Under the pieces are notes generated by a model. It was given only the letters and a program-made list of their open reading frames with translations. It did not search any database and was not told the DNA's origin. Source: Gnetum montanum (Eukaryota > Plantae > Gnetophyta). Taken from it: DNA of 64,000 nt. The stretch covers positions 844,424 through 908,423 of the forward strand of contig MNCI01002249.1 of NCBI GenBank assembly GCA_015680685.1. The letters run 5' to 3'. Below are positions 8,495-62,889 of this stretch, piece by piece. Made by a program: the position numbers and the translations under genes. Position 1 is the stretch's first letter. Every line of letters begins with the position of its first letter.

Positions 8495-8618
8495 CTGAGT
8501 TATAGATAAAACAATTCCATAAAGGGAATTCTGAAACTGGATAGATCCAAGGGGTCCTGAGTTATAGATAAAACAATTCCATAAAGGGAATTCTGAAACT
8601 GGATAGATCCAAGGGGTC
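8495..8618. repeat. Perfect 62-bp tandem duplication
   Basis: 8495-8556 is identical to 8557-8618. Confidence 0.9.
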
Positions 8619-18237: not shown

Positions 18238-21200
18238 TGTGGACCTTTTGGTGTGTCAAAACATTAAGAAAAATAGAGACAAAGGTTATGTTATGTAGTT
18301 GTTGTGGGTGTAGGACCAAGATGAGATGACAAGGAACACATTGATGTAGACAAAAGGAGAAAGTTTTCCACAAGGTTTCAAGGTCTCATCCACAAAAGGA
18401 AAGCTCAAAGGAAAAGAATTCAAAGAACATGGACAAGCAAAGTCGTCATCATTGATGCACGCAAAAATGCAAGATTATGAAGAGGGAACGAAGAATTCAT
18501 CATGGAAATGAAGAAGAAGAAAGATGTCTTCAAGAAATAGTAGACGTCTTGGCAGAATTGGAAGATGCACAAACAAAGATGTCTCCAAGAAACAATAAAC
18601 GTCTTTTATTAGGCAAAGATGCCTTCACCAGACAAAGACATCTTCACAGAATGTAGGCCAATTTAAAAAAGATGTCTTTCACTAGACAAAGATGTCTTCC
18701 CAGAATGAAGATTTCAGAAAGACATCTTTCCTAGACAAAGACGTCTTACTAAAATAAAAGGCAAATATAGAAAGATGTCTCAAGCACAAAGAAGACATCT
18801 TCCATGACCACTAGCTACCATTAGCTAGTCGTTGCACAAGTTCCAAGATGGATTTGGAAACATGATAGCTATAAAAAGACATCATATGCATTTGGAAATG
18901 TGAAAGCTTATGTGTAATCATTGTCTAATCATTTGTCAATCATTGTAATCATTGTTTCTCTTCATTATATTATCATTTGTCCATTATAAAGTGTGTTGTA
19001 GCTTAAAGTACAAGGATCAACAAACTGAGTTGCATTCCTTCCTTGTATTTGTTCTCCCTTGTTGCCCTATAGGATTGAGGTGCTTCTTACAGGAAGGCAT
19101 CTTGATTGAGCTTGTTGGGATCTTACAAGATTAAGTGGTTGAAGTTGTAGCACAACACTCCTAAGTAGAGCTTAAGATTGTAAATGTTGTGAAAGCTTGG
19201 AAACCACATTCCAAGCCTAATGAGACCTTGCAGAATTGAGTGGTTGGTGTAGTGTCACAACACTCCAGAGTTGGGCTTGAAGATTGTACAAGGTGTGGAC
19301 CCTTCAATCCACATTTGAAAGTAACAAAGTTCTGAGGTGTGCTTATGATCTACCCTCTAAGTGTGGACTACCTAAGTTGGGGAACCATGTTAAATTTGGT
19401 GTATGTGCTTTTTCCAAAGAATTTCAATTTAGGGAACTTATTCATCCCCCCACATTCTAAGCTCAATGATCCACAAGTGGTATTGGAGCCTCGTACTCGT
19501 TTTTGTAATCATCAACTTCAAGAGTGAACAATGGAGGGGACATCTTACACAAAGCCACCTATGTTCAATGGATTCAACTTCACATTTGAAAAGCTAGAAT
19601 GCAAGGATTCTTCGAATCCATAGAGTTTGAAGTGTGGGAGTCAATCCTTGAAGGCTTCACTCTAACTATTGACAACTCCACCGACATTGTCAACCCTTGC
19701 CACAAATGAACATAAGAGGAAAAGGATGAGTTCATGTTTGATTCAAAAGTAAAAAAATTATTTATTTTATGCATTGAATAAATCTAAATTTAATAGAGTA
19801 GCAGGATGTCAAATAGCCAAAGAAATTTGGCAAACTTTAGAAGCTACTTTTGAAGAAACATCTATTATTAAGCAATCGAAATTGTTAGTTTTACAAAGTG
19901 AATACGATAGACTCAAAATGAAAGAAGGTGAGAAAATAAAAAATTATTTTTATAGAGCTAATGATCTTGTTGTAGCTATTAGAGGAACAAGTAAAGATTT
20001 GTCTAAAAGCGATGTCATTGTCAAAATGATCAGAACTCTACAACCAAAGTAGAGACCATAGGTCATGGCTATGGAGGAGATCAAAAATTTCTCAACCTTA
20101 TAATTTGAAGAGTTTCAAAATGCTCCCATTACTTATGAAATGAATCTCACAAGTGAAGGAGTGATCCAAGAAAGACCTATTGCTCTAAAGATTGCATCCA
20201 AGGAGAAGGAGTTCAATGAACATGATGATGATAGCTAAGATGAGATTACCTCTCTCAAGGAAGTTGCAACAATTGCTAACAAGAAGAAACAAGGAGGCAT
20301 CACAACAAAGAACCCAATTTTCTCAAAGGTAGAAAAAGAGGTAGAAATTTTTTAAATTCTAACTTAGATTTTAATTCCATAGAATGTTGGGTTTGTGGAG
20401 GAAGAGGTCATATGACCTTTGAATGTCCTAATGATCTTAGTGATAGCAAGATATAGCCAAAGAATAGATCCAATGATGAGAAACTAAAAAAGACCAACTT
20501 TTATACAAGTTGGAATGATGATGAACAAAGTGAAGAATAAGCATGTAATTCTTCCAAAAATTCACATCTCATATGCATGGTAGTTACAAATGAAATTTCC
20601 TCACATATGGCTGAACAAGATGGTAAGTGTGACAAAAGGTATAGCAAACTTAAAGAAGAAAATTTTCATCTACATCAATTGATTAGGAAGGCAAAGAAAT
20701 TTGTAATTTCTAAATTGGATGCTATTCATGCTAAAGTGAAAGAAGAGATCTTAGACATAAAAAGCTGAGATTCAACAACTAACCTCTTTTAATAATGATT
20801 GCAACAAGGTTCAAGAAGAGGAGACTCCTGAAAAATAGCCAACGAATTTAGAGGAAGCCACACATGAAAATTCAAGCTCAAGCATAGACAAGTTTGATAA
20901 TTTTGATCATAAGGATAATACTTTATTTGTTTGTAAAAATTGTGGTTGTAAGTAAACTCTTAACTATACTCATGATAATCAAAACAAAATTAATGCTTGG
21001 TATTGTCAAAAAGGCTCTGGTAAGGAAATTGTGTAGGTACCAATAAGCAAGAATGAAGAGAAGTGGAGAATTGAAAATGATGTAATAAGTGATCAAAGGT
21101 TTTATCATAAAGAGCATGAATAAATACAAACATCACATATATGATCTAATGAAAGAGAACCAAAGGATGAGAAGGTACTTCATGATAGGGGACCTCATCT

Positions 21201-24282: not shown

Positions 24283-27045
24283 GCAAGTTCGACCCAAGGT
24301 GGAGCAAAACAACCTAGGAGAGGTCGAAGACAAGTTCCTGCCGGACAACATAATGAACAGGAGGTGCATTCATTTAGCATCCATCAAGACGAACCTCCTA
24401 CCAGACGGTCCGGATAGGCAGAAGGAGGAGCTGCTGTGCCTGAACTGGGACAACAACTCACGTTGCCCCCCGAATGTGTTCAGGCCATCCACGCGAAGTC
24501 CACGATTGCTTCGGTAATTGTGGAACTCAACTTCGAATCTTTTGCAGAGTTCGCTCCTGAGGCTGTTAGGGATCACCTTAAAGGGTCTCCCTTCTGGCCT
24601 GTCCTCTCTGAACAAAGTGCCTGGTACTTAGGAGAAACGTACTTGTTTTGGCACAATAAAGAGCAAGGCACCACAGTAAACATCGGTGGTGTGTCAGTAG
24701 ATTTTTCTGCACAGGCGATTTCGGAAGTGTTAAATCTTCCGAATTCAGGCCCCCATGTTGCTCGGTTATCCACCCGATCCGACCCTGATGTGCGAAAGGA
24801 TTGGCTAGAGAAGGCTTATGGCAGAGATAAGGCTTTTGGTGAGCTGACCACGGAGGAGCGAGTCTATTTCAAAATCGGGACTTATCACCTCTTCCCCACA
24901 AAAGGCTTAAAGAGAATATCAACGTATGCGGCAAGAGGATGTGCAGTGTTGATGGGAAAGGTTAACGCTAACCTTCCTCATCTATATTTGACGGAGATCC
25001 TAAGGCGATTCGAAGAACGGAAGACAGGAAAAATGGCACTCCCTTTTCCCTGTCTTATCAGAAAACTGTGCCGTCGGGCAGGTATTCGGGGATATACAAA
25101 TGACGTCCTCCGAAAGGCCCAAAATGCTTCTTATGCTGAATTGTTAAAGGCGCCAGCTCCAAGAAAGAGTACTGGCGAAGAGTTGGGACCAGATGAAGAA
25201 AATGAAGAACAGGTGACTGAAACCCCTGCAACTCAGCTTGCAGGACCCAGTCAACCTCCAGCCACAGGTCCTAGCCAACAACAAGAAGCAGAACCCGGCA
25301 CAGGCCAGGATCAGCCGCCGCCGCAAGACTATAGACCGTCAATGAGCCACTTGAGGGCTATTGCTGAGACGGTCAGTTGGGGAAGTCGTGATGACACCAG
25401 TCTTTTCCGTGTCATCGATGATGCCAGGCAGCCTACAATTTCAATAGATCGCACAAGGGGTGAGTTGTCAGTACAAACAGGAGGAGGGGAAAGTAGATGG
25501 TCACAACAGATTTCTGGACATGCGGCATCTTTTCAAGTGCAATTAGAGACTGGTGAAGGGGCCACAGTGGTGGTCATGCAACACCAGGATGCCGCAGGAG
25601 CAGCTGATGTGGTAACTGACTACATCAAGGAATCTTTTCATGTACCTGTTGTGCCACCGGCAGATCTTTCAGGAGCACAGGATGCTCAAACCATTGCCGG
25701 AACCTCAATGACTCCTGCAGAACATGAGGATGCATTGGACAGATTGCTTCAAACAGGACAAGTTTTAACGTCTCTGTTTGACATCCCTCAGGATGTAACC
25801 GCAATGCAATCAGACCTCATTTCAACCAAGGGGAAACTGGTCATATCCGAAGTAAGGGCTGAACATGCTGAGGCTGAAGTGTAGAAATTACAAGAGCAGC
25901 TCATCGCCTTACAGGCAGCACAGCGGGATCCCTTGCGATTGGTTCCCGCAGACCAGTTAGACAATTTTAAAACCGAGCAATTAACCAAATTAATTACAGA
26001 AAATAAAAAGGTGGCAGAAGAAAAGGAGATGGCCACTTGGGATGCCTCCGCAGCACAGGCGCAAACTCATGTGCATCTTAAGGCACTCAAGGCCTTACAA
26101 GAAAAAAACAAATAGTTGATTGCTGATAACCTTCGGTTGACCTCTGTGGAGAAGCAAAAGAATGTTCTCGATGAGCACTTTCATCGGCTTCGGGAACAAT
26201 TCATTTGAGTCAACCAAGACGTAAGCCGTTTAGCCAGAGAAAATAGAACCCTCTCAATGGAGGAGATGCGCGCTATTCGACAGAAGTCAGCCATCGAAAT
26301 TAGCGCGTGGCAGAATGAGGCTAAATGACACGAGAAGCTGAAGGAGCACTTCCGTGACCAGGTGGGGATGTACAAACAGATCCTGGAAAAGGATATCCTT
26401 ATGGCAAAAGCCCAAATCAACAACATCAGTGCCCAGCACACTGATTGGGGGGCCATATTGGACACTTATGCCTATGCCCACCAGGCGGAAATTAAGAACC
26501 GGGACCTGCAGATCCAAGACTTAACTGAATACATGGAGTTGGCAAATCTTCGGTATGCCAACCTGGCCATGTTAACGGCAGGACGCCTGAGGTCAGAGCT
26601 CGAGCAGCAGGTAGCTTCCACCTACATCAAATATGAAGCAGAGTTTACAGAACAAAAGAAGTTGGCGGAAAAATTAGATGTTGCAAATTCTGAACTTGCG
26701 GTGGTAAAAGAGAGCTACCAAGGGTAGAAAGATGTAGCATCCGACTTGGCTCGACGGCTCACAGAACTTCACGAATATAAAGACAAAGCCAGAGCCTTTG
26801 AAGAGGAACGACGGGTGTTTGCGGCATGGTACGTCAAAGCTAATCAGATGTTCCCGCAACTACCCTGTCCGTGGGAAGTGCCGACTCCATCAAACATTGG
26901 AGTATCAGCATGGACGACACAAGACCCTCGGACCGAAGAGGAGAAGCTCCAGGCTATTCTTTAGTATCATCAATCTTCAAAACTTGGAGCACGTGACAAA
27001 GGGAAAGCACCCATGGAGGAGCCACCGCCACCAGGAACTACATGA
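24283..27045 (+). pseudogene. Athila-like extra (env-position) ORF, young copy, ~920 codons, N-terminus missing
   Basis: One continuous frame broken only by stops at 24415, 25882, 26113, 26206, 26326, 26725 and 26962; plant transposon protein (PF20167-like) pattern GVSVDFSAQAISEVLNLP...LPFPCLIRKLCRRAGI; long coiled-coil C-terminal half. Confidence 0.8.
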
Positions 27046-27182: not shown

Positions 27183-27216
27183 CTCGAGGACGAGTTTTTA
27201 TTCAGTCGTGGGGGTA
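27183..27216 (+). promoter_or_regulatory. Athila-type PPT region
   Basis: CTCGAGGACGAG...GTCGTGGGGGTA immediately before the LTR TGATGA. Confidence 0.75.
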
Positions 27217-28190
27217 TGATGAGACGCGGTTTGCGTCGGCCGCGATATCGCGTACGCGATATCGCGTCCTTCCCTACGATATCGCGTACGCGATATCGCA
27301 GTCCGCCGCCATGTCTATAAATAAGAGGCGGCACTCCCTTGTTTGGGGATCCCAGTTTTAGTGTAGCGAAGCTCTGGCAGTTTGATCCCTCCAGAGTTAG
27401 AATTTTCCCGTGTCTGCCCGCAGTGTGGTGAATGTGATTGTACGGTGTCTTTATTCGAGTGTGCCGTACTTGGACACGCACATGACCGGCAATAAAGATC
27501 GAGATTACTTCATCATTGCAGCATTCACTTAGTTTATTTATTTGTTATTTATTTAATGTTATTTATTGCTTTCATAGCGCGGTGTGAGTACGACTTAACT
27601 ACGAGCATCTACGGGTGTGTACGGCTAGTTAAGGAATCGGTTACTCATCGCGATTAGTTTCTCACCCTTAAACTCCTAGAAGCGGAACGAGTACGACTTG
27701 ATTACGAGCATTTAAGTGTGACTGCTTGGTAGCCCAGTGGTGTAGCTAGGGGGATCTACGCTTGGTAACCCAGTGGCGTATTTGGGGTCTGCGCTTGGTA
27801 ATCCCAGTGGCGTACCTAGGCCTATGCTTGGTAGTCCCAGTGGCAGTCGTGCATGAAGTCCAAGATGTGTACGGTTGATCAAGGAATCGGTTGCTCGTCG
27901 CACTTAGGCTAGATTAGATTTTCTTACCCTTTTTCCTCTTAGCTTAGATTAGTTAACATTATTTTCCATTGCCATCAGGAGTAGCGTTAGAATTAGAATA
28001 CATCATACACCTCATCTAGACTAAACCATACGTGACATATGCAAAACTAGTCTAGATGGGAAGATAGCGAACTGCGACCTAAGGCTAACTATCTAGGTGC
28101 CACAACTAGTCCATCTGCGGAGTTCGACCGGATCACGCGTGCGATGCTCGTTTCGTATGGTTGAGTGTAGGGGTACCTCGCCACTCATCA
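27217..28190 (+). mobile_element. Athila-like 3' LTR, young and CpG-intact (copy A)
   Basis: TGATGA...TCATCA termini; CTATAAATA at ~27315; homologous to five other LTR copies in the window. Confidence 0.92.
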
Positions 28191-36013: not shown

Positions 36014-36897
36014 TGATGAATCATGGTTTGCTACGTGCTGATATCAGACCCCTGATATTAGGTACAAGATATCAAGTCTGATGAGTCCCGATATCGGACC
36101 CCCGATATCGTAGCCTAGTTAGCGATATTAGATACGTGATATCGTGGTTCCCGTGTTAGCCTATAAATACACAATTGGGCGCACAAGAAAGTCATAGGAA
36201 AAGTTAGTGTTAGAGTAGAGTCTTTTTGTTCATTTTTTAGTTCTTCTCAACTTTTTTTCCCCAGTGCATGCTTACAGTGTGATGATTGTAATTGTACAAG
36301 ACCTTTATTCAAGTGTGACGTACTTGGACATGCACATGATCAGAAATAAAGATCGAGATTACTTCATCATTGCAACATTCACTTAGTTTAATTATATAAT
36401 TTTTATTCATTGCTTTCTTACTTAATACTTCTTTACCCTCAACTCCTATCCCTGTTAGTAAATGTGAAATGGGTACGACTTAATCATGAGCATTTAAGTG
36501 TGACTACTTGGTATCCTAGTAGCGTACCTAGGATATGCACTTGGTAATCCCAGTAGTAGTCATACACGAGGTCCAAGATGTGTACGGATGATTAAGGGTG
36601 GATGCTCATCACACTTAGGCTAGCTTAGACTCTCTTCACCCTTTCCCTTTTAGGTTGATCAAAGTTATTTCCATTACCTCTAGGAGTAGCACTAGTTTAA
36701 GACCACATCATACACCTCACTTTGGACTAAACCATATGTGACAAAGCAAATACTAGTCCAAGTGGGAAGATAGCAAACTGTGATCAACGAGTAACTATCT
36801 AGATACCACAACTAGCCTATCTACGAAGTTCAACCAGATCATGTGTGAAACACTCATATTCATATAGTTGAGTGTAGGGGTAGCCCGCCACTCATCA
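36014..36897 (+). mobile_element. Athila-like solo LTR inserted in the pol of B
   Basis: TGATGA...TCATCA; perfect 5-bp TSD ATGCT on both sides. Confidence 0.93.
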
Positions 36898-39800: not shown

Positions 39801-41839
39801 AAGGCCCCCTTGTTTTGGATCTAGCTCTCTCCTTATGTTGGTTGCTTGCTAAGGTTGAACATAACTAATAAAACATGTGTATATGAATCCTATGATATTG
39901 TATCTATGAAATTAGAGTTACGATATGGTAACTCTGCATACATCATTGTAGATGTGATGTAGTGGGCCATGGTCATGCCTATAAATACCAACCCACTGTT
40001 GCATAAAAAAAAAAAACTTTTAGCCAACACTTAGCAAAATTTTTATAGTTTATTTTTGTGACTTAGAGTTAGAGTTAGAGTGAATGCCCGTAGTTTGGTG
40101 AGCAATAGTTATACGAAATCTTTATTCAAGTGGATTGTTGCTAGACACAATTTATGAATAGAAGTAAACATCAAGATTTTTTTTCATCATTGCATCATCT
40201 CACCTAGCTTAATTTTTACTTTTCATCATGTTTACTTGCATTAAGTTATTTACATTTTCTAAGTTCTTTTACATTCCAATGTCTCTTAGTAAGATGGAAT
40301 AAGTATGATTAGTTTCGAGCATAAAGTGTAACTTTTTGGTAACCTAGTATTGACTTTGCTTGGTTCACTTAGTAGTGAAATCACTTGGTAATGCCACTAA
40401 CTATTATATCAAGCCATAATGTGTACGGAAAACAATGAATGGTTGCTTATTGCGAATAGGATAGAATAGCTTTATGTTTTCATTGCACTTAGACATAGAA
40501 TTTACAATCATTTTTACCATGTTGGTACTTAGTGTAATTCGAGTGAAATAAAATCAATATATCATATATCTCACTAAGAGTTAAACCATATAATTTTTAC
40601 TTTGCCAACTCTATGTGAGAAGCAAACTATCATAAACTAAACATCAACTACTAGTATACTTATATTGTCCATCCACAAAGTATGAGCTGATTGCACATAA
40701 AGACTTGTGACTTGTATGGTTAAGTGTTAGAATACCTAAATACTCATCATTTATGTCATTGCAAGGGATGTGCCAATGTTTTCTAGTTAGTTGATTTTAC
40801 CAAGATTATTGTATTAAGCTTCATAAAATATAATTTTCATACTTACATTAATTTTCTCAAAAAGTATACACTTAAGTGTCAAACACTTAACATGGCTTCT
40901 ACAACTAAGGAAAAATCTCCACTTGCTAATGAATTTAATGAAAGTCATGACAAGGATTATAATGAAGAAGATTGAAGTACACTGATTTAAACCAAAATTT
41001 CCTATGCTTACACTCATCCTTATTATCCTGACTTTACATTTATTTTTCATCCAGATGAACAACTCAGATCGAGAGATTTACAAGGCAACATTATCTTGCC
41101 ATAGAAAAGTTCTACACCATCAATGCTTCAAGTAGGTCTTATCAGGATAAACCCTGGCCATGTACAAGAAGGCTACTACATCATCAAACACATGACTAGG
41201 TCATACTAGCCAACTGAGGCTTAGGCAAGAACCGATGCCATCATAAAGCTAAGGTATGAACAAGAAAAATGGAACAAATCACCTTAAATAGTTGTTATAG
41301 AAGAAAAGGAAGATGCTATATTCCAAACTAAGAAAATCTATTAGACTCATGGGTCTCATTCTCAAACACCAATCATTCATATTAAAGATCCTATTAAGAT
41401 AAAATTGCATTTAGCTCTTATAGAAACCCCTAGAAGAAATAAGGAAGACTCCAGACTTAGGAGGAGATCAAGGGCCAAGACCTCTATTGAATCTAAAAGT
41501 GATGAATTAAGGAGTTACCAAAGAAAAACCAACTCACACCATTCTTCAACTCCTTCATCTTCTTCCTCACATTCATCTTCAGATTCTAACAATAAAGAAT
41601 GAAGACTGAGGGATCATGATGGGGAAAGAAAAAGAAACCATGAGAGATGTACATATAGAAGAAGGAATCTTGATGAAGAGGAAGATAATCATGATGAAAG
41701 AAGAGAAAGGATTACACATGAGGAGAGAGAGCATCATGAGCATTTGAGGGATCATTACTACACCAGAACTTATGAACCCAAAGACTATGAACAATCATTA
41801 TTGGCCACTTGAAATATGATGAATATTAGGGAAGCTATG

Positions 41840-42898
41840 TATTGGTCTTTTGGTATGTCAAAACCTTAAGAAAAATGGAGAACATAGGATGTTTGTCTGA
41901 TGTTGTGTTTATAGGATAAGAACTCGAATTGAGATAAGAAGGTTTGAGAAAGCTTAAGAACATGGACAAGGAATAAAGAATTCATCATGAAAAGGAAGGT
42001 GAAGAAAGACGTCTTTGAGAAATAGTAGATGTCTTGGCAGGATTGAAGGATGCATAGACAAAGATGTCTCTTAAAAACAACAAACATCTTTCATCAGGAA
42101 AATACATCTTCACTAAACAAAGATGTCTTCTCAAAATACAGACTAGTTTCAAAAAGACGTCTTTCCCCATACAAAGATGTCTTCTCAGAATTAAGGCAAA
42201 TATAAAAAGACATCTCAAGCATGAAGAAGACGTCTTCCATGACCATTAACTATTGTTAGCTAGTTGTTGCATGAGTTCTAAGATGGATTTGGAAACATGG
42301 TGGCTAAAAGAAGACATAATTCTCATTGGGAAAAGTACAAGCTCTTGTACAATCACTATGAAATTATTTGTCAATCATTGTAATCATTATTGTTCCTCAT
42401 TGTATTATCCTTTGTCCATTGTAAAGTGTGTTGTACTTCAAAGTACAAGGATCAAGAAACTAAGTTACATTCATCCCTTGTAAGTGTTGTTCTCCCTTAA
42501 TGCCTTGTGGGGTTGATGTGATTCCTGCAAGAAGGCATCTTGATTAAGCTTGTTAGGATCCTATAAGATTGAATGGTTATGTAGTGTCATAACACTCTAA
42601 AGTAGAGCTCAAGATTGTAAAGGTTGTACAAGCCTAAGCTTGTTGGAACCTTGCAGGGTTGAGTGATTGGTGCAACATCACAACACTCTGGAGTGAAGCT
42701 TAGATCTTGTATAGGGTGTGGTACCCTTCAAACCACAATTTGGAAGGAATAAAGTCTAAAGGTGTGGTTGTGAACTACCCTCCAAGTGTGGACTACCCAA
42801 GTTGGGGAACCATGTTAAAATTGGTGTGCATCTTATGTAAAAGAGTTTCAAATTGGAGAACTTATTCATCCCACCCCCTCTAAGTTCAACTATCCACA
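41840..42898 (+). mobile_element. SIRE-type solo LTR in the gag of C
   Basis: Homologous to 18238-19475; ends TCCACA; perfect TSD CTATG; gag reads REAM|YIPTRHVRDSRIK across it. Confidence 0.92.
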
Positions 42899-43672: not shown

Positions 43673-46600
43673 TGATGAGCAGCAAGCTATCCCTAATCTC
43701 AACCATACGAATCATAAGTGTTCACGCACGATCTGGTCAAATTCCATGGATGGGACTAGTTGTGGCATCTAGATCATTATGCCTTAATCACAGTTTGCTG
43801 TCTTCCCACTTGGACTAGTGATAGCTTTGTCATGTATGGTTTAGTCCAAAGTGAGGCATATGAGTCTTGATGTTGTGTTGGCCTTATGCTACTCCTATTG
43901 ATAATAAAGAAATCAATTATTTAAACAAATTAACAATGGAAAGTAAATTCTAAACTAGCCTACGAGTGATGAGTGTTAGTTCTTAGCTTGTCATACACAT
44001 CCTAAACCCATGCATCTACTCCTGGGGTTACCAAGTGCTATACTACTAGGCGAACCAAGTAATAATGCTACTAGGGTTACCAAGCAAATATGTGTTTACG
44101 CTTGAAATTGGTCATGCTCATTTTGCCAATTCATTAATATGCATGGAAATGTAAATATTAACTAAGTACATGAAAAGTAAATTGCATGGAAAATAAATTT
44201 GATATAAGTCAAAGTGCTACAATGAATAAGAATTAATATTGATCTTCATAGAATGTGTCTAGGTACATTGCCACTCAAATAAGATGTTGTACAACTAAAT
44301 TAGATCCACACTGTAGGCACTCACTAACTATTCTCTAAGACTACAGAATAAAACTGCAAGAGTTCGAATACTCTATTAACTAACTTATGCCCAAACCATG
44401 AGCCGAACCACTATATCTATAAGCCAGCATACATGTCACGATATTAGATATTTGACATCACTTCTTGGGCCTCGATATCAGAGCTAGATAAAATAAGATT
44501 CATCATAACCCCACAACTGAATGAAAACTCATCCTTGAGTGAAAAAAAGAAGGAACAAATCCCTTACAAAATATTGGGAAGGTATGGGATTATTGACTGA
44601 CGCTAACTACTAACTGACTCTAACTGCCGCATTATAAAATTTTATTCAAGTGGATGCATACAAAATCGTAAAGTGACAGAAAAACTGGATAGACATTGAA
44701 GATTAAAAAATTTGCAAAGCTTTTGAAAAATCTGTTAAAGATGATTCTACTTGTTGCCACTAATGATGGCAGACTTTCAACCTTGATTGTTATGTCGATG
44801 CTTCTCTAGTTATGCAAAACATTCTTGAAGGATGGATTGAAATTTCTTCTCATCATCCCATGGATCTAGCAAACATGTGATTTTTGAGCTACTATCTTAT
44901 ATGTGCTACAATTTGTCCATAGGCATATCCTTTGTTGTACTCCTCTTGGCTTCATTTTTGTACCTGGTAAAAGACCTTCTTCCTTAGGTGTTTCTTTTAG
45001 CATCACTTGTAGTCACCAAAGAATCAACATTAGGTTTGGTAAATTTTTCCTTAATAATCAATCCTTTTTGGATTCCTTAGTTTGTGTTTAGGCTATGGGG
45101 TAACTAAAATCATCAAGTTGTTCAGATTATTTTGATTGATTACTATTAGTTACCATGATGTTCGAAAATAACATGTTGGAAAAATTTCAAAAATTTCAAA
45201 GTAAGCATCCCTAGCCCCCATGACTAATAAGCATAACTCCAAAAGCACACAAGTTTTCAAAAAATTGAAACCAAAGGTCTAATTCATAAGATTATGAAGA
45301 AATATTAATGGATATGAAAATAGAAAAGTAGGAAAAATTAATGAAATAAATGAGAAGTAGTCTCAAAATTATGCATAAATTTAGAGAAAGCATCACTAAT
45401 GATCTTGAAGATCTCAAGGTTAGTTCAAAGCCATGATCAACAAAAGTTATGCAAGTGGGTCTTTCCTGAAGTAGGCTCTTGTCGTAATGCCCTTGCATAA
45501 CCACTTCTATAGATGTTCGTGGGCATCCAAGAAGTTAAATGTAGACCATGCCTTTTTTCCAAGCAACATACATCTATCATGGTTAGGATGTTGCACTATA
45601 CTATAAAAAAACCAAAAGGCTCATAATCGCATGCAGCAATGAGGTGAATAATGGGATGAGAAGGAATTGCAGAGATTGGGATGTAAGGTACTTGACCATG
45701 TCCAGAATAGGTTGTGAAAAATGTAATTAAAATGATTAGCATACCTATCTTTCCAAGTTCAGACTAAGTCCATACCATGAATAGTGACCTCGCATTGATG
45801 TATTTCTTCTTGCCGATCACCATGAGTTGACAACCACCTCAAGGAACAATCATCACTCCAAAAGGGAAGAAAATAGAAGAAGGAAGGGCCTTAGTTAGAG
45901 GGATGCCTTTAGGCATGGGTAACATGTCTTTCAAGCCCCATAACTAGTGCTTGTAGCCCATTATTGTGTCTAAGGGGTGTGCTTTGAATTTCTATTATTA
46001 TTATTTTTCTTTTTCTTCTCTTTTTTTTTAATTTTTTTTTTCTAATTTTTGTTTTGTTTTGTTTTTTTTTTTTTGAATTTTTGGATGGGAACCACACCAT
46101 GCAAATACATAGCTTCCTATTTATTAGTTGATGAAGGAGTGATGATACATTCATTGAGGAGTCATAAACCACACGAAGAAAGTCAAGAAGAGAACCCAAC
46201 AAGTCCCCTTGAGGTCACACCCTTTGCCATTCCCACTTGGTCATTCCCTCTTTCTTCAAGGTACAATGATCATTGATGAATTTTAGTTTAGAAAACGAAG
46301 AATCAAATTGTTTAGGTGATAAAGACCCTTTATTCAAAGAACTAGAGGGATGGATGAGGTGGTTTCATTGCTTTACACAATTACTTACCCAATCATCTTG
46401 ATAACATAGCACAAAAACCCAACACATAGCGTTGACTTCTACATCATGACTAGCAATATTATTAATGAAAGCATAAAAAGAAACATTCATTAAACATAAA
46501 GAAAATGACTCAAGAAAAGAAAAAAATATAAATAAAAAAATATTAAGAAATGGAAAACATATGAAGAATCATAAAATTTTGAAAGAAATAGGAAAATGTT

Positions 46601-49600
46601 AAAAAATTGTAAAACAAAAAAGGTGAAAAATACATATTTGTTCTTGAACCAGGATGGAGCATACAACTAATTTGATGGCCATGCATTCGATAGATGGATT
46701 GTATAATCCCTTGGTTATACACCATCAGTTTCCCATCTATCACCATTACTAATTTAATTAGTCGTGTGGTAGCACATACAACATTGGTGATAGTCTCGTT
46801 TGGATCATTCAAAGATGTATCTTCATCTGGACTTGAAGGTTTTGGGGGATCTAGATGTATTTGCTTCTTCTTCTTGATTTTTTATTTTAATTCCTGGGTC
46901 TCCATGTTTAATATCCTCTTCTAGTGCATAATCAAAGTGTAAGATATCTGTGTCTAAGTCCTTGGTTTAGTTCATTTTCTTAAGTCTAGAACTAATAAGC
47001 AAATCAATTACCTCCATGCATTTGTAAAATAATTTTATATTCTCATTTTCAACCCATTTGGTATCTTCTGGTTTAGTGGCTACTACGTAGATTGGTTTTT
47101 ACTCACACACTTGCTCCTGAACTTTATTGTGGGCTATGTTAATATTTTGAATTTCTAGCCCAGAACTGCACCCTTTACTATTAGTAGTGATGCATGGATT
47201 CTTCTATCTCTTCATTGTGCTAGATCCATCTCTTTTTTTAGGTGTTGGAGTAATGACAAATGTTGGCCCTTATGTAGGATTGGAAGACATTGGTCATGGA
47301 AGGAAGATTGTTGCACTTGATTGACATTGTGCTAGTTTGGATGAGTTAGTAGGTCCATGAGTGTTATGCTTATGTGTGGGAACCATCCTAAAGAAAGGAC
47401 GTTTCCAAGATTGTGGTGGAGATCTATTGGCATTATCATTTTTGTGTATGTTCGTAGCACAAATGGCATTCTATTGTTAATGTTGTGGTGCTAAGCCTTC
47501 CTGTGTTGCTGGTGGTGACATATGGTAGAGGGAAGTAGAAGAATATTGAAAATATGACAAAGGTTGAGAGGTGTGAGGTGGTGATCTCATGGAAGATGTT
47601 TCGGGATGATGATATTTGGGAGAGTGGTAGTAGTGATTTGAGGTAGTGGAAGTAGAACTAGTCAAGGAAATAGGTTGTTGAACATAATATCTATATGGGT
47701 CTGGCTAACAATAAGGGTAGTGTTGGTTTGATGATGGCCTCCCCCATGACTATGGGCTTTTCCACTGTAGTTGATGGTAGTTTTGAGGCTGATAAGAAGT
47801 CCCATTAGGATAGTACAGTTGGTTGTAAGATTGTCTATAATTACCTTATGAGTGAGGTAACTTCCTAGGAATTTGCTTTTGTACGAACTTGGGATTCAAT
47901 GCAAAATCCCAATACTTATGTAGATGTAACATGACTGGGCAATAACCCCTTGGATGGTCATATATATAGATGTCAGAGCCATCATCTTTTTTGGTGGTTG
48001 AGTCTATAGCCTCTTCTTCTACAATCATTTGTCCTTTTTGCCAATCAATGTTATTAACTGTCTCTTGGTCCCTTTTCCTCCTTTTGTTGTGGTCACTTGA
48101 TTTGTTTTGAATTACTCTCTACTCTATGATTTCTACACAGTTGTAACTTTCTCATTTATCCATTTCAACATCTTATCTAGCTTTGCTTCAAGCTCATCGA
48201 TAGACTTTTGTTGTAGCAAGGTTTGTTGTGAAGTCACCTCATCAAGAGTTGCCTATTTTTCCTTATCATAGATGTGGACCCTTTTCTTTTGAAGAGTTTG
48301 ATCCCAATTATTTTCCTCTACATTCTTTTGTTTACATAGCTATCCTTCTTCTTTTGCCACCCACTCAATTAGCCTTTATATCTAATGGGCTTTCAGTTCA
48401 TATAACTAACCTTGGGCATGAATCCCAAGGGTCTCCCTCATTTCATTATGAAGCCCATCTATGATGTGGAAAAGTTGCTCTTTTTGAGAGAAACCATGGC
48501 CTGGGCATTTATTCAATAGAGAATAGTATTTATTAAGGGCCATATCCAAGGGTTCATGTTGTTCTTACTTCCATTCTTGGATTGGTTTCCTTAGGTTGGA
48601 CACCCTCACATAGGTTTGGTATTTCTCATTGAAAAGTTCCAACATTGTGGACCATCGATGGATTGAGTTTGGTTTCAATGATTTATACCATACTTTGGCT
48701 TTATCTATTGGTGTCCTAGGAAAGAGCTTAAGATTTTTCCATATACTTTTGATGTTTTGTAAGACACAAGCATCATGGAAGGCTTGTAAATGATGTTGTG
48801 GATCAGAATCATAGCCTCCCACAAATTTAGAGATATTATTCATATCAAGCCTTTTTATGCAACTTTCCCTATGATGCCTGTGGGGTATTTTAACTATCTC
48901 CATGATTTGTAGCATGCTCTTAGTAAGCAACAAGGGTTTACTGTCGTCAAACATGTCATGGTGAAAATTTCTAGCTCTATTCATCTTATTGTGATGATTT
49001 TGTTTATGTTCATTTTGATGTCTTTCATTTTTCCTGTGGTTTTAGTTTCTATTTATATTTCGACCCCATAGTGAAGCTTTATCTTTATACCTACATTCAT
49101 GTTCATCAGAACTAGACGTTGAAGAGGAAGAGGAAGATGAGAAACTAGGAGAATTTCCATGGCCTCTATAGTATTCCCCATGGTTCCTTGATTTATCTTT
49201 TCTAGGTGTTGAGGAGGTCCCAGGCCTTAAGGCCTTCCCTAGTCTAGGACTAACTTCATCTTCTCTAGGATTGTTTGCCTTAGGTGAGTGTAGTCCTTGA
49301 GTGTAGTCAGGGTGGTTATGGACATATGAAACCCCCACATAAGATTGGTCACTCCAATTTTCTTTAGTATATATCTCGTGAGTTCTCCAATGAATGTTCT
49401 CTCCATACAATGCATCATCACTTCCTTATGAAAGAGACATTGTTGTTGGTTTATGATGTGTGTGATCTAGTATTTTCTAAAAGATAAAAAGTTAATGCAT
49501 TTACAATGATTGTGTATAATATATAATCTAGATAACTAGCACCATCCCTAGCAATGGGGCCAATGATGAGCAACAAGGTATCCCTACATCCAACCATACG

Positions 49601-50416
49601 AATCACAAGTGTTCATGCATGATCCAATTGAATTCCATGGATGGGACTAGTTGTGGCATCTAGATTGTTATGCTTGCCTTGATTGTAGTTTGTTGTCTTC
49701 CAACTTGGACCAGTGGTGGCTTTGTCACGTATGGTTTAGTCCAAAGTAAGGCATATGAGTCTTAATGTTTCATTGGCATTATGCTAGTCCTATCGATAAT
49801 AAAGAAATCAATTTAAACTAATTAACAATGGAAAGTAAAGTCTAAACTAGCCTACATGTGAGGAGTGTTTGTTCTAAGCATTCCATACACATCCTGAACT
49901 CATGGATCCACTACTGGGATTACCAAGCAGTATGCTACTAGGCAAACCAATCAATAATGTTGCTAGGATTACTAAGTGAATACATGTTTATGCTCAAAAT
50001 TGGTCATGCTTATCTCACCAATTCATTAATATGCATGGAAATGTAAATATTAAGTACATGAAAAGTAAATTACATGGAAAGTAAATGTAATCTAAGTTAA
50101 ATTGTTGTAATGAATAAGAACCAATCTTGATCTTATTGCTGTTCATGAAATGCGGTTAAGTACATTGCCACTCGAATAAGATGTCATATAGTTGACTCAA
50201 ATCCACATTGTGGGCACTCACTGATTATTCTCTAAGACTACAGAATAAAACTACAAGAGTTAGACTACTCTATTAACTAGCTTATGCCCAAACCATGTAC
50301 TTAAGTGTTATATTTAAAGGCTGGCACACATGGCACAATATTGGATATCTGACATTGCTTTGTGTACCTTGATATTGGGTGTCTAATATCAGAGCCAGAA
50401 AAAATATGGTTCATCA
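43673..50416 (-). mobile_element. Complete non-autonomous Athila-like element D
   Basis: LTRs 49564-50416 (5') and 43673-44505 (3'); TSD TAGAT; PBS TGGCCCCATTGCTAGGGA at 49545-49562; PPT ~44507-44515; decayed gag ~47250-49420; no RT or INT. Confidence 0.93.
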
Positions 50417-53281: not shown

Positions 53282-54173
53282 TGTTGAGTGGCGAGGTACC
53301 CCTACACTCAACCATATGAATACGAGCGTAGCATGAGTGATCCGGTTGAACTCCGCAAACGGACTAGTTGTGGCACCTAGATAGTTGTCCTTAGGTTGCA
53401 GTTTGCTGTCTTCCCACCTAGACTAGTGTTATATTTTTCACGTATGGTTTAGTCTAGATGAGGTGTATGATATGTTCCTAATTCTAACGCTACTCCTAAG
53501 GGCAATGGAAAATAATATTAACTAAGCTAAGCTAAGAGGAAAAGCGTAAGCGAATCTAATCTAGCCTAAGTGCGACGAGCAACTAATTCCTTGATCAACC
53601 GTACACATCTTGGACCTCATGCACGACTACCACTGGGATTACCAAGCGTAGATCCTAGGTACACCACTGGGCTACCAAGTAGTCACACTTAAATGCTCGT
53701 AATCAAGTCATACTCGTTCCGCGTTCTAAGAGTTTAAGGGTGAGAGAGAGAAAATAGTAAATAACATTAAAATAAATAAACAAAGTGACTACTGCAATGA
53801 TGAAGTAATCTCAATCTTTATTGCTGGTCATGTGCGTGTCCAAGTATGTCACACTCGAATAAAGAATACCGTACAATTACATTCACCACACTGCGGATAG
53901 ACACGGGAAAATAAACTATCTCTAGAGTGACCAAACTGCCAGAGCTTCGCTACTTCTAACTCCTAATACTTGAAACTGGGAAAGCTACCTCTTATTTATA
54001 GAAATTGCGGTGCACTACGATATCACGTACACGATATTGTAGGGAAGATGCGATATCACGTACGCAATATCGCGGCTGCGATATCACGGCCGCTGCGATA
54101 TCGCAGCTACTGATACAACAGGGCTATGATATCACGGTTGCGATATCATAGCCAGCAAATTCATGACTCATCA
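53282..54173 (-). mobile_element. Athila-like solo LTR (close to copy A) in the RNase H of C
   Basis: TGTTGA...TCATCA; TSD ATAAT/ACAAT (one transition). Confidence 0.92.
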
Positions 54174-60208: not shown

Positions 60209-62889
60209 ATGGCCCTAAAGAGGACACTAGAAGAAGGACCCTCACAACTGGAAAACAAAAGACCAAGAGGTTGAGGAAGAGGTCACATTGGAGAACAAAC
60301 TCCACCAACAAAGCATGCAGAGTAAGAAGCCTAGTCTTTTAATATCCATCACCAAACACCTACTACTGAATACTTTGCCCAAGTAGAGGTTGAAGCACCA
60401 CAAGGACAGAACCTTACGCTATCACCTGAATGTCTTCAAGCCATCTAAGAAAAGTCAATCATGTCCATAGTTATTGTGGAATTCAATTTTGGTCCTTTTA
60501 TGGAGTTTTCACTAGAGACTGTTAGAACACAACTCCAATCATCTCCCTGGTGGCCTACCTTGTCAACAAGTGGAGAATGGTACTTAGGGGAAATCCTTCA
60601 ATTTTGATAAAACAAGCAAGCTAATTCCATGGTAAAGATAAAAGGAGTTTCCATGTCATATTTAGTGGAGGTGATAGTCAAAGTCCTCAATTTACCAAAT
60701 GAAGGGGCTAATGTAACATAGATATACACATGGTCTGATACTGATGTAGAGAGATTGTGGCTACACTGAGCCTATGGCAAGAAGGATAAGGAATATAGTG
60801 AGCTAACTACAAAGGAAAAGATATATTTCAAAATTGGCACCTATCATCTATTCCCAACCAAAAGGCTTAACAGGATTTCAACTTATGTGGCTAGAGGAAG
60901 CACCATATTGATGGAAAACTTAAATGTCAATATTGTCCATCTGTACTTTCTCAAAATCCAAAGATGATTTGAAGAGAAGAAGGTGGGGAAGCCAATAGTA
61001 CCATTCCCCTACCTGATCAGAAAGTTGTGCAAACAAGCAGACATACTTGGTTATACAAACAATGTTTTGAGGATAGATTAAAACACCTCATTTGTTGAGA
61101 TTTCAAAACCCATGCGTCCAAAGAAGGATCAATTGGAGAAATAGGTAGGTACTGAGGGAGCTATAGGCTCAAATCCTATTGACACCATTCAAGCTTCTAG
61201 CCAACAATAACAAGAAAGACTTAGTAGCTAGCCACCAGTTGATCGGCAACAAAAACAACAAGTTCCACCGTTGCCTCCATAGGATTATCAACCTTCTATG
61301 AGCCATCTATAGCAAATTGTAGATTCAATAAGCTAGGAACAAGAGAAGGGGCCAATCTCTATAAGGTCATAGAAGATGCAATCAGATCCACCATCTCAAC
61401 AGATCCTACTAATGGGCAGATATCATTGCATTTAGCAGGAGGGGATACTTGGTCACAAAAGATCTCAGGGAACGTTGCATCATTCCAATTAATGTTGGAA
61501 ACTAGAGAAGGAGCCATAGTGGTGGTCATGGAACATCAAGATCTAATAGGAACACTAAAGTGATTACTAATCACATGAAGGAGTCCTTCAATGTTCTTAT
61601 TGTGCCACTAGTCAATATCTCTAGAGTGTGACGCTCAAATGTTGGTTGGAACGTCAATGACTTTAGCTAAACATGAAGAAAACTTAGATAGGCTATTGAA
61701 GATGAGGCAAGCTATGCAACATCTTTTTGATATCCCTAGTGATATCATTGCAGTCCAATTTAAACTATTAGCCACCAAAGAAAAGTTTGTTATGGCCAAG
61801 ACTAGGGCAGAGCATATCGAGAATGAAGTCTAGAAACTACAAGAAGAGCTCATGACCTTAAGGACAGAAAGAAGAGATCCCATGTGATTCATGACACCTA
61901 ACCAACTTGATTAGTTTTAGATAGACCATGTAAATCATCTCATTGACCATAATTTGAAGATGGAGTGAGAGAAGGAGAAAGCGGTATAAGATGCCTCAGT
62001 GACAAAAGCACAAATGTATGTACATGCCAAGGCACTCACTACTCTAGAGGAAGAGAATAAACAATTAGCTATAGACAATGTTGAGTTCACTAACATTGAG
62101 TGCCAAAAGAACATTGTCGAAGAAAGCATCCAACAACTTCGAGAACAATTAGTTCAAGTCAACTAAGATACGAGTCGCTTGGCCTATGAGAGCAGGATCC
62201 TATCAATGGAAGATGTTCACACAATGAGATAGGTATATACAATTGAGATCAGCATGTGGTAGAATGAGGCTAAGAAGCATGGATGACACAAAGAGCATTT
62301 TTGAGATAAGGTGGACATGTACAAGCAGATTAATGAGAAAGAAATTTAGATGGATAAAGCCAAGATAAAGTCCATTTTAGTGCAAAATCCAAATTGGTAA
62401 TCAATCTTGGATAGTCTAGCCCATGTCCACCAAGTAGAAATTAAAAATAAAGACTTGCAGATTGATGATCTCATAGAGTACATGAGGTTAGTGAATCTAC
62501 GCTATGCTAACCTGGCCATGTTAACTATAGGTGGGTCCAAGAATGAATTAGAATAGCAAGTAGTGATCGTGTATGTTATGTATGAGAAAGAATTGGGTAA
62601 CAGAAAAGATGCACCTTAAAAGTTACACATGGAAAAATTAGAATTAGAAGTTGTTAAGGCTGGCTAACAAGGCTATAAAGATGTTGTAGCTAATCTAGCT
62701 CACAGAATGTTTGACTATTAGGAATCAAGAAAAATAGCCAGGTTATTTGAAGAAGAACGATGGTAGTTTGTAGCCTAGTATGTAAAGGAAAATCAAATGT
62801 TCTCACAACTACCATGCCCATGGGATGTACTAGCTCCATCACACATCACTCAACAAGGATGGACAATACAAAATCCTAGGATATGACAA
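60209..62889 (+). pseudogene. Near full-length decayed extra-ORF copy
   Basis: ttgtag|ATG start; collinear with the young copy through YFKIGTYHLFP, NLRYANLAMLT and FSQLPCPWDV; cut off at TGTTGA 62890. Confidence 0.85.

What the first reader, a model, noticed from the sequence alone, without database searches (positions are those of the whole stretch)
27719..27848. Variable-copy array of identical mini-hairpins plugged into the motif loop
Seen: a GACTGC/GCAGTC stem encloses four units of CTTGGTA(A/G)(T)CCCAGTGG. The linkers differ in sequence but each is self-complementary (GTGTAG/CTACGC, GCGTA/TGCGC, GCGTA/TATGC). Unit number differs among LTRs: 4 here, 2 in the solo LTRs at 36.0 and 53.3 kb, and 3 in C and in both LTRs of D. 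Inference: constant units with structured variable spacers suggest a tunable multivalent binding array for Gag, the extra-ORF protein or a host factor, rather than neutral slippage.
Basis: partly seen in the sequence, partly recalled or inferred. Interest (0 to 1): 0.7.

Follow-up and report, generated by a model that had tools for sequence, protein, structure and literature searches.

The report
Repeat array inside retrotransposon RNA hairpin
A plant jumping gene carries two to four copies of a short repeat inside a predicted, evolutionarily conserved RNA hairpin in its terminal repeat; the repeat's core is conserved and likely binds a protein, while the number of copies likely changes through copying slips rather than working as a tuned dial.

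Summary
In detail: four units at 27725-27843, unit counts of 4/2/2/3/3/3 in the six LTRs of the window, and complementary linker ends (38 of 43 pairs; shuffles 17.9). The array lies in the likely U5 of an abundant Athila-type LTR, inside a stem-loop that covaries across LTRs only 54-87% identical (15 of 30 pairs changed on both sides) and is read in RNA mainly on the sense strand. A second copy of that stem-loop has no units and a UACG loop. The linkers are not variable spacers: unit plus linker is one tandem repeat (33 nt, or 24-25 nt in the other subfamily), and the linkers are homologous. The drawn linker hairpins are not favoured in folding models (pair probability 0-0.12). Unit cores change about four times more slowly than the rest of the LTR, so pure neutral slippage fits poorly too. 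Best reading (0.5): a leader-RNA element with a constrained, probably protein-binding module whose number drifts by template switching. Tunable multivalency is untested.

The parts
27217..28190 (+). 974-bp LTR (TGATGAG...CTCATCA) that holds the array; 3' LTR of a 5'-truncated Athila-type element
   Evidence: purine tract directly upstream; GC 0.47 and CpG o/e 1.20, the least decayed LTR in the window
27205..27216 (+). polypurine-tract-like sequence abutting the LTR
   Evidence: similar stretch before the 3' LTR of element D
27316..27323 (+). TATA-like box (U3/R side, inferred)
   Evidence: a match within 1 mismatch in all six LTRs
27491..27496 (+). AATAAA poly(A)-signal-like element; places the array in U5 (inferred)
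   Evidence: a match within 2 mismatches in all six LTRs; cleavage site not mapped
27586..27646 (+). host stem-loop, copy 1: no units, predicted cUACGg loop at 27610-27613
   Evidence: z -2.16; paired variants in RNA reads at 27597/27630 and 27598/27629
27689..27896 (+). host stem-loop, copy 2, which carries the array in place of the tetraloop
27716..27725 (+). 5' arm of the stem that encloses the array
   Evidence: pairs 10 of 10 with 27843-27852; 6 of 10 pairs change on both sides across LTRs
27725..27740 (+). unit 1 (13-nt core around a 3-nt middle)
27740..27761 (+). linker 1 (22 nt, sharing its end bases with the units; 3-nt insertion relative to the 2-unit LTRs)
27761..27776 (+). unit 2
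27776..27794 (+). linker 2 (19 nt)
27794..27810 (+). unit 3
27810..27827 (+). linker 3 (18 nt; CCTAGG palindrome in its middle)
27827..27843 (+). unit 4
27843..27852 (+). 3' arm of the enclosing stem
24418..25884 (+). longest open piece of the element's extra ORF (Pfam Transposase_32); homologous sequence continues, interrupted by stop codons, to about 26.9 kb
   Evidence: (E 1.1e-13, above the curated cut-off)
36014..36897 (+). solo LTR, 2 units (36507, 36540), period 33
   Evidence: identical 5-bp target-site duplication
39880..40749 (+). decayed LTR (C), 3 units (40335, 40359, 40384), period 24-25; start approximate
43673..44505 (-). 3' LTR of element D, 3 units (44084, 44059, 44035); middle unit has a TTCG loop
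49564..50416 (-). 5' LTR of element D, 3 units (49976, 49951, 49927), followed by a tRNA-Asp/Asn-type primer site
   Evidence: target-site duplication of D identical
53282..54173 (-). solo LTR, 2 units (53679, 53646), period 33; 87% identical to the LTR of the finding
   Evidence: flanks match 4 of 5

Best explanation
The array is a head-to-tail repeat of one unit-plus-linker module lying in the apex of a predicted, covarying RNA stem-loop in the likely U5 leader of an Athila-type LTR retrotransposon; its conserved 13-nt core likely serves as a protein-binding site on the genomic RNA (most likely for Gag), and its copy number likely changes by template switching during reverse transcription. 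Shown: tandem repeat, homologous linkers, counts of 0, 2, 3 and 4, slower change of the core, covariation of the enclosing helices, RNA reads mostly on the sense strand. Inferred: the U5 position, the RNA-level function, the ligand, and the mechanism of copy change. Because each unit's 5' half can pair with any unit's 3' half, the array probably folds back as an irregular rod or branched structure, not as a fixed cloverleaf. Once the enclosing stem is kept, 2-4 modules appear to be tolerated.
For: Tandem repeat: TRF period 33, 3.6 copies, 80% matches. Linker loops match the loop of the 53-kb LTR in 8 of 12, 5 of 9, 7 of 9 and 8 of 9 positions, and read variants at 27745, 27781, 27782, 27784 and 27787 move this LTR's linkers towards that loop. 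Constraint: 5 transversion-type departures in 221 core cells (17 units) against 452 in 4434 LTR-wide; between-subfamily rate 0.043 against 0.16-0.22. RNA structure: 91.5% of 200 cells pair, 15 of 30 pairs change on both sides (two of them A-U to U-A), 0 of 500 shuffles reach this, and slid controls give 21-46%. In raw RNA reads, paired positions vary at matching frequencies: 27597 A>G 54/237 with 27630 T>C 56/258; 27598 A>G 169/237 with 27629 T>C 167/257; 27724 G>A 211/253 with 27844 C>T 123/138. Two G-U pairs hold in 7 of 7 rows of the alifold register, which suits the + strand only. The unit-less copy alternates UACG/CACG (27610 T>C 146/238), both YNMG loops (PMC5633025, passages). The middle unit of one D LTR has a TTCG loop predicted to close on itself (P 0.93). 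RNA depth is 3-9 times higher on the mate direction that implies a sense transcript. In all six LTRs the best constrained fold-back rod scores lower in energy than the best all-self-hairpin fold (by 0.9-6.9 kcal/mol), and in the 2-unit 53-kb LTR it is 0.8 kcal/mol from the minimum. Retroviral RT deletes and duplicates direct repeats by template switching (PMC3187697, passages).
Against: The array alone folds no better than shuffles (z -1.42 and -1.0). No single fold is shared: the enclosing stem has probability near 1 when the array is folded alone but 0.05 and 0.04 in this LTR and the 53-kb LTR, and 0 in C, when the whole motif is folded. Most two-sided changes are transitions, which methylation decay can mimic (C>T and G>A are 203 of 296 listed changes in X1), and seven related rows count a few events many times. 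The core was defined after seeing the units. The first units rank in the best 7% of 13-column LTR windows, but the last units only in the best 22%. A stem-loop with no units exists, in the window and in many RNA reads, so the units are dispensable for at least one copy. The RNA reads (801 of 12.9 million, 493 of them under 90% alike) may be read-through of many old copies. No ligand was tested.
Confidence: 0.5

Rival explanations
1. Neutral minisatellite in a tolerant loop: the host stem-loop is functional, but the array is a by-product of duplicating one small hairpin. Linker complementarity is inherited from the duplication, and unit similarity reflects recent duplication and turnover.
For: One period covers unit and linker; a unit-less motif exists; linker hairpins have probability 0-0.12; no folding excess over shuffles; in subfamily C/D the linker arms resemble the inner pairs of the outer stem.
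Against: The core survives across subfamilies that are 54-63% identical and whose linkers differ in length (18-22 versus 9-10 nt), with about a quarter of the LTR-wide transversion rate. In this LTR the three linker loops differ from one another at several positions while the four cores are identical. Inner linker pairs, which in the 33-nt type differ from the outer stem, hold in 20 of 21 cases against 8.8 in shuffles.
Confidence: 0.22
2. DNA motif array (VANC-like or transcription-factor sites): the same-orientation repeats are read as double-stranded DNA by the extra-ORF protein or a host factor, for example to counter silencing, and number sets avidity.
For: Same-orientation motifs with gain and loss in a non-coding region, as for VANC21 targets, where motif density matters (PMC5735166, passages). 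The element encodes an accessory ORF of unknown function. VANC and Athila-domain proteins are modelled with similar coiled-coil oligomers (PMC13547354, passages).
Against: The array always lies inside an RNA-type covarying stem with G-U pairs and YNMG/UUCG loops. Spacing differs between subfamilies (33 versus 24-25 bp), so the helical phase is not kept. The unit's two conserved halves are separated by 3 or 4 nt.
Confidence: 0.13
3. One reading: a tuned multivalent RNA array in which unit number is itself selected and sets binding strength, with linker hairpins as structural spacers.
For: Core constraint, linker complementarity, counts of 0/2/3/4 with no 1-unit form among the window's seven motif copies or the 15 of 41 joints shown.
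Against: Linker hairpins are disfavoured, lying 0.8-17 kcal/mol above the minimum when forced. In the window, number follows subfamily. RNA depth falls from about 240-280 on the flank and unit 1 to 40-110 over the inner units, and 60 reads leave the reference at 27750 into a last unit, so two units look like the common form. Nothing links number to activity.
Confidence: 0.12
4. CRISPR-like or small-RNA-producing array with acquired spacers or processed units.
For: Superficial repeat-spacer look.
Against: Linkers are homologous to one another and shared across the family; no Rfam family at gathering score in the window.
Confidence: 0.02

Closest known systems
Athila lineage LTR retrotransposons (Ty3/gypsy, non-chromovirus OTA; PMC6317226 passages; ATHILAfinder 10.64898/2026.03.20.713144 passages)
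   Same: Primer site of the tRNA-Asp/Asn type after the 5' LTR, LTR ending in ...ATCA, extra sense ORF before the 3' LTR.
   Different: The extra ORF hits Transposase_32, not Athila ORF-1 (PF03078). No structured U5 array was mentioned in the passages read. The RT of this family was not identified, so no phylogeny was made.
Retroviral leader packaging signals, e.g. MoMuLV core encapsidation signal SL-B/SL-C/SL-D with repeated UCUG sites (PMC7599994, passages)
   Same: Tandem related hairpins and repeated short motifs in a structured 5' leader; palindromic loop sequences.
   Different: Here the array is inside the LTR, upstream of the primer site; the number varies from 0 to 4; Gag binding and dimerisation are untested.
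VANC-target tandem repeats of VANDAL transposons (PMC5735166, passages)
   Same: Short motif in same-orientation tandem repeats with rapid gain and loss, beside an accessory gene.
   Different: VANC reads dsDNA of a DNA transposon; this array is nested in a covarying RNA-type stem of a retroelement.
Sirevirus repeated-motif (RM) boxes (PMC2829016, section 9 read)
   Same: Variable-copy repeats in plant LTRs.
   Different: RMs are palindromes upstream of the TATA box. This array is about 400 bp downstream of it, and its period is not a better palindrome than shuffles. The GATATC repeats at 27241-27299 are the closer match to RMs.
RT template-switch duplications and deletions of direct repeats (PMC3187697 passages; PMC12115494 abstract)
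   Same: Gives a ready mechanism for gain and loss of whole 33-nt periods in an LTR.
   Different: Described for retroviruses; not shown for this family.

Membership tests
Athila lineage | Primer-binding site for tRNA-Asp/Asn next to the 5' LTR | tested here: met
   The bases after the 5' LTR of D (49563 downward) match 10 of 13 letters of the site given in ATHILAfinder; loose ends behind 28190 in four DNA runs are of the same type.
Athila lineage | Extra sense ORF between pol and the 3' LTR | tested here: met
   ORF 24418-25884 with Transposase_32, directly upstream of the purine tract and LTR; pol of this copy is not in the window.
Athila lineage | RT/INT phylogeny and absence of an additional RNase H | not tested
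   No RT could be assigned to this LTR family; the RT at 29.6-30.1 kb belongs to the element into which the LTR inserted.
Simple tandem repeat (minisatellite) | Head-to-tail homology over the whole period | tested here: met
   TRF period 33, 80% matches; linker loops homologous.
Simple tandem repeat (minisatellite) | Even, neutral decay along the period | tested here: not met
   Core 5 of 221 transversion-type departures against 452 of 4434 LTR-wide; the core was defined after inspection and units are not independent.
CRISPR-like repeat-spacer array | Spacers unrelated to one another | tested here: not met
Retroviral psi-type leader element | Conserved secondary structure in the transcribed leader | tested here: met
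   Enclosing helices covary and sense-biased RNA reads cover them; this holds for the host stem, whereas the fold inside the array is unresolved.
Retroviral psi-type leader element | Binding by Gag/NC and requirement for packaging | not testable with these tools
   needs bench work
VANC-type DNA motif array | [quoted passage not shown] | tested here: met
VANC-type DNA motif array | Sequence-specific dsDNA binding by the element's own protein with local loss of methylation | not testable with these tools
   no ChIP or methylation data on hand
Sirevirus RM boxes | Palindromic motif clustered upstream of the TATA box | tested here: not met
   Array is downstream of the TATA box; self-duplex energy of three periods is matched by 26-45% of shuffles.
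Known Rfam RNA (ribozyme, miRNA, cis-element) | Match to a covariance model | tested here: not met
   No match at gathering score in the window; at E up to 5 no match overlaps the array or host motif in two LTRs.

The most novel reading that the evidence does not exclude
Gymnosperm Athila-type elements carry an undescribed modular leader RNA: a conserved stem-loop 'socket' whose apex holds either a YNMG tetraloop or 2-4 copies of a module. Pairs of modules fold back on each other into two-fold symmetric protein-binding sites (no single-module form was seen), so module number sets the valency for Gag or the accessory protein and lets subfamilies compete for packaging.
Probability: 0.15. Interest if true: 0.7.

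Novelty: new variant of a known kind. Interest (0 to 1): 0.4.

Why it matters
The RNA signals that plant Ty3/gypsy elements use for packaging, dimerisation or translation did not turn up in the searches made here. This family has on the order of 100,000 unitigs per DNA run and occurs in seven organism labels, so it offers natural 0-, 2-, 3- and 4-module versions of one covarying stem-loop. That makes a leader-RNA element of a plant retrotransposon directly testable. If the array is only a tolerated repeat, the lasting result is the host stem-loop, not the array.

Tried and rejected
No whole genome is held, so copies were limited to the six LTRs in the window plus summary tables of laid reads. 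Collection scans: an exact 24-mer gave 0 hits in metagenomes; two patterns gave 0 in viral contigs; a gapped pattern gave 7 metagenome and 3 genome hits. None of these 10 loci resembles the LTRs (best E 0.1), so all were dropped as chance. Rfam and ARAGORN found nothing relevant. The extra ORF found no relative in the word-indexed search and two short fragments in the full HMMER search, too few for an alignment or locus search. No RNA holder was listed as on record in the run search; X17 and X19 are only guessed to be RNA. No pile-up of read ends was seen in X24, but it is a 150-nt paired library and says nothing about small RNAs. A covariance model was not built, so no model-based search for further motif copies was made. 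Rejected: the cloverleaf of linker hairpins as the dominant fold; a stable DNA hairpin; an assembly artefact. A tRNA A-box or primer-activation resemblance of the unit was considered from recall only and not tested, because no host tRNA sequence was available. Paper searches: (0 hits); none listed a paper on this array, but subscription papers are not covered and no supplements were read.

Full report
1. Observation. The array is as described. GACTGC (27720-27725) and GCAGTC (27843-27848) enclose four units starting at 27725, 27761, 27794 and 27827. CTTGGTA occurs 24 times in the window against 8.95 expected, and 0 of 100 shuffles reach that. The six LTRs of the window carry 4, 2, 2, 3, 3 and 3 units. 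Over all 11 linkers, 38 of 43 end pairs are complementary (shuffle mean 17.9, maximum 29); without the two outermost pairs it is 20 of 21 against 8.8. These 11 linkers descend from about three ancestral types, so they are not independent. A contig from another study spans the whole 4-unit array with one difference (X19), so it is not an assembly artefact.

2. Context. The array lies in a 974-bp LTR (27217-28190) preceded by a purine tract and by an extra ORF with a Transposase_32 domain. The 5' LTR of the related element D is followed by a site matching 10 of 13 letters of the Athila tRNA-Asp/Asn primer site, and loose ends behind 28190 in four DNA runs are of that type. I therefore call the family Athila-type; its RT was not identified. 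It is very abundant: 97,639-136,278 unitigs per run were laid on 1.2 kb, with C>T and G>A dominating, as expected of methylated plant repeats. TATA-like and AATAAA-like elements at 27316 and 27491 recur in all six LTRs, which puts the array in U5, in the leader of transcripts from the 5' LTR. This placement is inferred; no transcript end was mapped.

3. The socket. The array sits in the apex of a larger motif (27689-27896). A second copy of that motif, at 27586-27646, has no units and folds into one stem-loop with a UACG loop (z -2.16). On seven motif copies from LTRs 54-87% identical, 91.5% of 200 cells pair, 15 of 30 pairs change on both sides, no shuffle of 500 reaches this, and slid controls give 21-46%. 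Two of the two-sided changes are A-U to U-A; the rest are transitions that methylation decay can mimic, and related rows repeat the same events. Raw RNA reads add independent support: 27597 A>G 54/237 with 27630 T>C 56/258, 27598 A>G 169/237 with 27629 T>C 167/257, and 27724 G>A 211/253 with 27844 C>T 123/138 (40 of 107 variant rows were shown, and these are frequencies, not haplotypes). The loop alternates UACG and CACG (146/238), both of the YNMG class (PMC5633025, passages). Depth in the raw RNA run is 3-9 times higher on the mate direction that implies a sense transcript; 801 of 12.9 million reads were laid, most from diverged copies.

4. Units and linkers. Unit plus linker is one tandem repeat: period 33 with 80% matches, and 24-25 in C and D. 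The linker loops are homologous. Against the loop of the 53-kb LTR they match 8 of 12 (p 0.002), 5 of 9 (p 0.07), 7 of 9 (p 0.01) and 8 of 9 (p 0.004); among the three linkers of this LTR the matches are not significant (p 0.08-0.22). Read variants shift linkers 1 and 2 towards that same loop. So they are diverged copies, not acquired spacers. Each unit has a 13-nt core around a 3-4-nt variable middle. Across 17 units the core shows 5 transversion-type departures in 221 cells, against 452 in 4434 for the LTR; between subfamilies the rate is 0.043 against 0.16-0.22. The effect is moderate: first units rank in the best 7% of 13-column windows, last units in the best 22%, and the core was chosen after inspection. 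In reads, two units look like the common form: 60 reads leave the reference at 27750 into a last unit, a joint 27750-27826 has 13 starts, and depth drops over the inner units. Joints removing one period, and forms with no units, are also listed. No 1-unit form is among the 15 of 41 joints shown.

5. Fold of the array. The array folds no better than shuffles (RNA z -1.42 and -1.0, DNA z -0.02). The enclosing stem is near-certain when the array is folded alone, but in the whole motif it falls to 0.05 here, 0.04 in the 53-kb LTR and 0 in C, and stays at 0.8-1.0 in the other three. Because the 5' half of any unit can pair with the 3' half of any other, several folds compete. The best fold-back rod (unit i with unit N+1-i) is lower in energy than the best all-self-hairpin fold in all six LTRs, and is 0.8 kcal/mol from the minimum in the 2-unit 53-kb LTR, where it includes the linker hairpin. 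It is 10 kcal/mol above the minimum in the 4-unit LTR. In one D LTR the outer units pair with each other and the middle unit closes a TTCG loop (P 0.91-0.99). The fold inside the array is thus unresolved.

6. Mechanism. Most likely (0.5) the motif is an RNA element of the genomic leader, and the unit core is a constrained protein-binding module, Gag being the first candidate by analogy with retroviral leaders that use tandem hairpins and repeated short motifs (PMC7599994, passages). Whole periods are gained and lost by RT template switching at direct repeats (PMC3187697, passages; PMC12115494, abstract). Part of the linker complementarity follows from duplicating a stem-loop; the part that differs from the outer stem suggests past selection. 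The ligand, the function and any effect of number are all untested.

7. Comparison and novelty. Variable-copy repeats in LTRs are known (Sirevirus RM boxes, PMC2829016, abstract and section 9), as are extra ORFs in this lineage (PMC6317226 and PMC7264820, passages). What differs here is the position downstream of the promoter and the nesting in a covarying RNA stem-loop that can also be empty. Rfam has no match. Ten paper searches listed no description of it, within a library that lacks most subscription papers. The scan's earlier notes hold nothing on this sequence. I rate it a new variant of a known kind, interest 0.4. The analysis rests on six LTRs and summary read tables, because no genome was held and collection scans gave only chance hits.

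Noticed in passing
window 27586-27646 and 27689-27896: The host stem-loop is itself duplicated in this LTR (one empty copy, one with the array). RNA and contig joints that go back 62 or 79 nt suggest tandem copies of it in other family members. It is the better-supported structure and has no Rfam match.
   Followed up: partly
window 27997-28190: The U5 end is among the most conserved parts of all six LTRs (16 of 30 invariant columns at 27997-28026) and is predicted to form long helices.
   Followed up: no
window 27241-27299 (also about 36050-36150 and 54010-54110): CpG-rich palindromic GATATC repeats upstream of the TATA box, period about 14, resembling Sirevirus RM boxes in position and symmetry.
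   Followed up: no
window 27815-27820, 36527-36532, 53654-53659: A CCTAGG palindrome lies in the linker middle of the 33-nt subfamily, a possible kissing-loop dimerisation site; it is absent from the short linkers of C and D and altered in two of the three linkers here.
   Followed up: partly
window 60770-62846: A second, more decayed copy of the extra ORF region, 63-68% identical to 24814-26897, with no LTR found after it.
   Followed up: partly
window 24418-25884: The accessory ORF has only two fragmentary relatives among 1.84 billion representatives despite a high-copy DNA family.
   Followed up: partly
window 43673-50416: Element D is only 6.7 kb with matching target-site duplication; among the open stretches submitted (52 of 112 in the window) only a weak gag hit lies inside it, so it may lack pol.
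   Followed up: partly
window 8495-8618: Perfect 62-bp tandem duplication (100%) in otherwise decayed DNA; a recent event or an assembly join.
   Followed up: no
window 18471-19475 and 41956-42898: Two related stretches, 75% identical; a copia-type gag hit lies just after the first, at 19753-20049.
   Followed up: no
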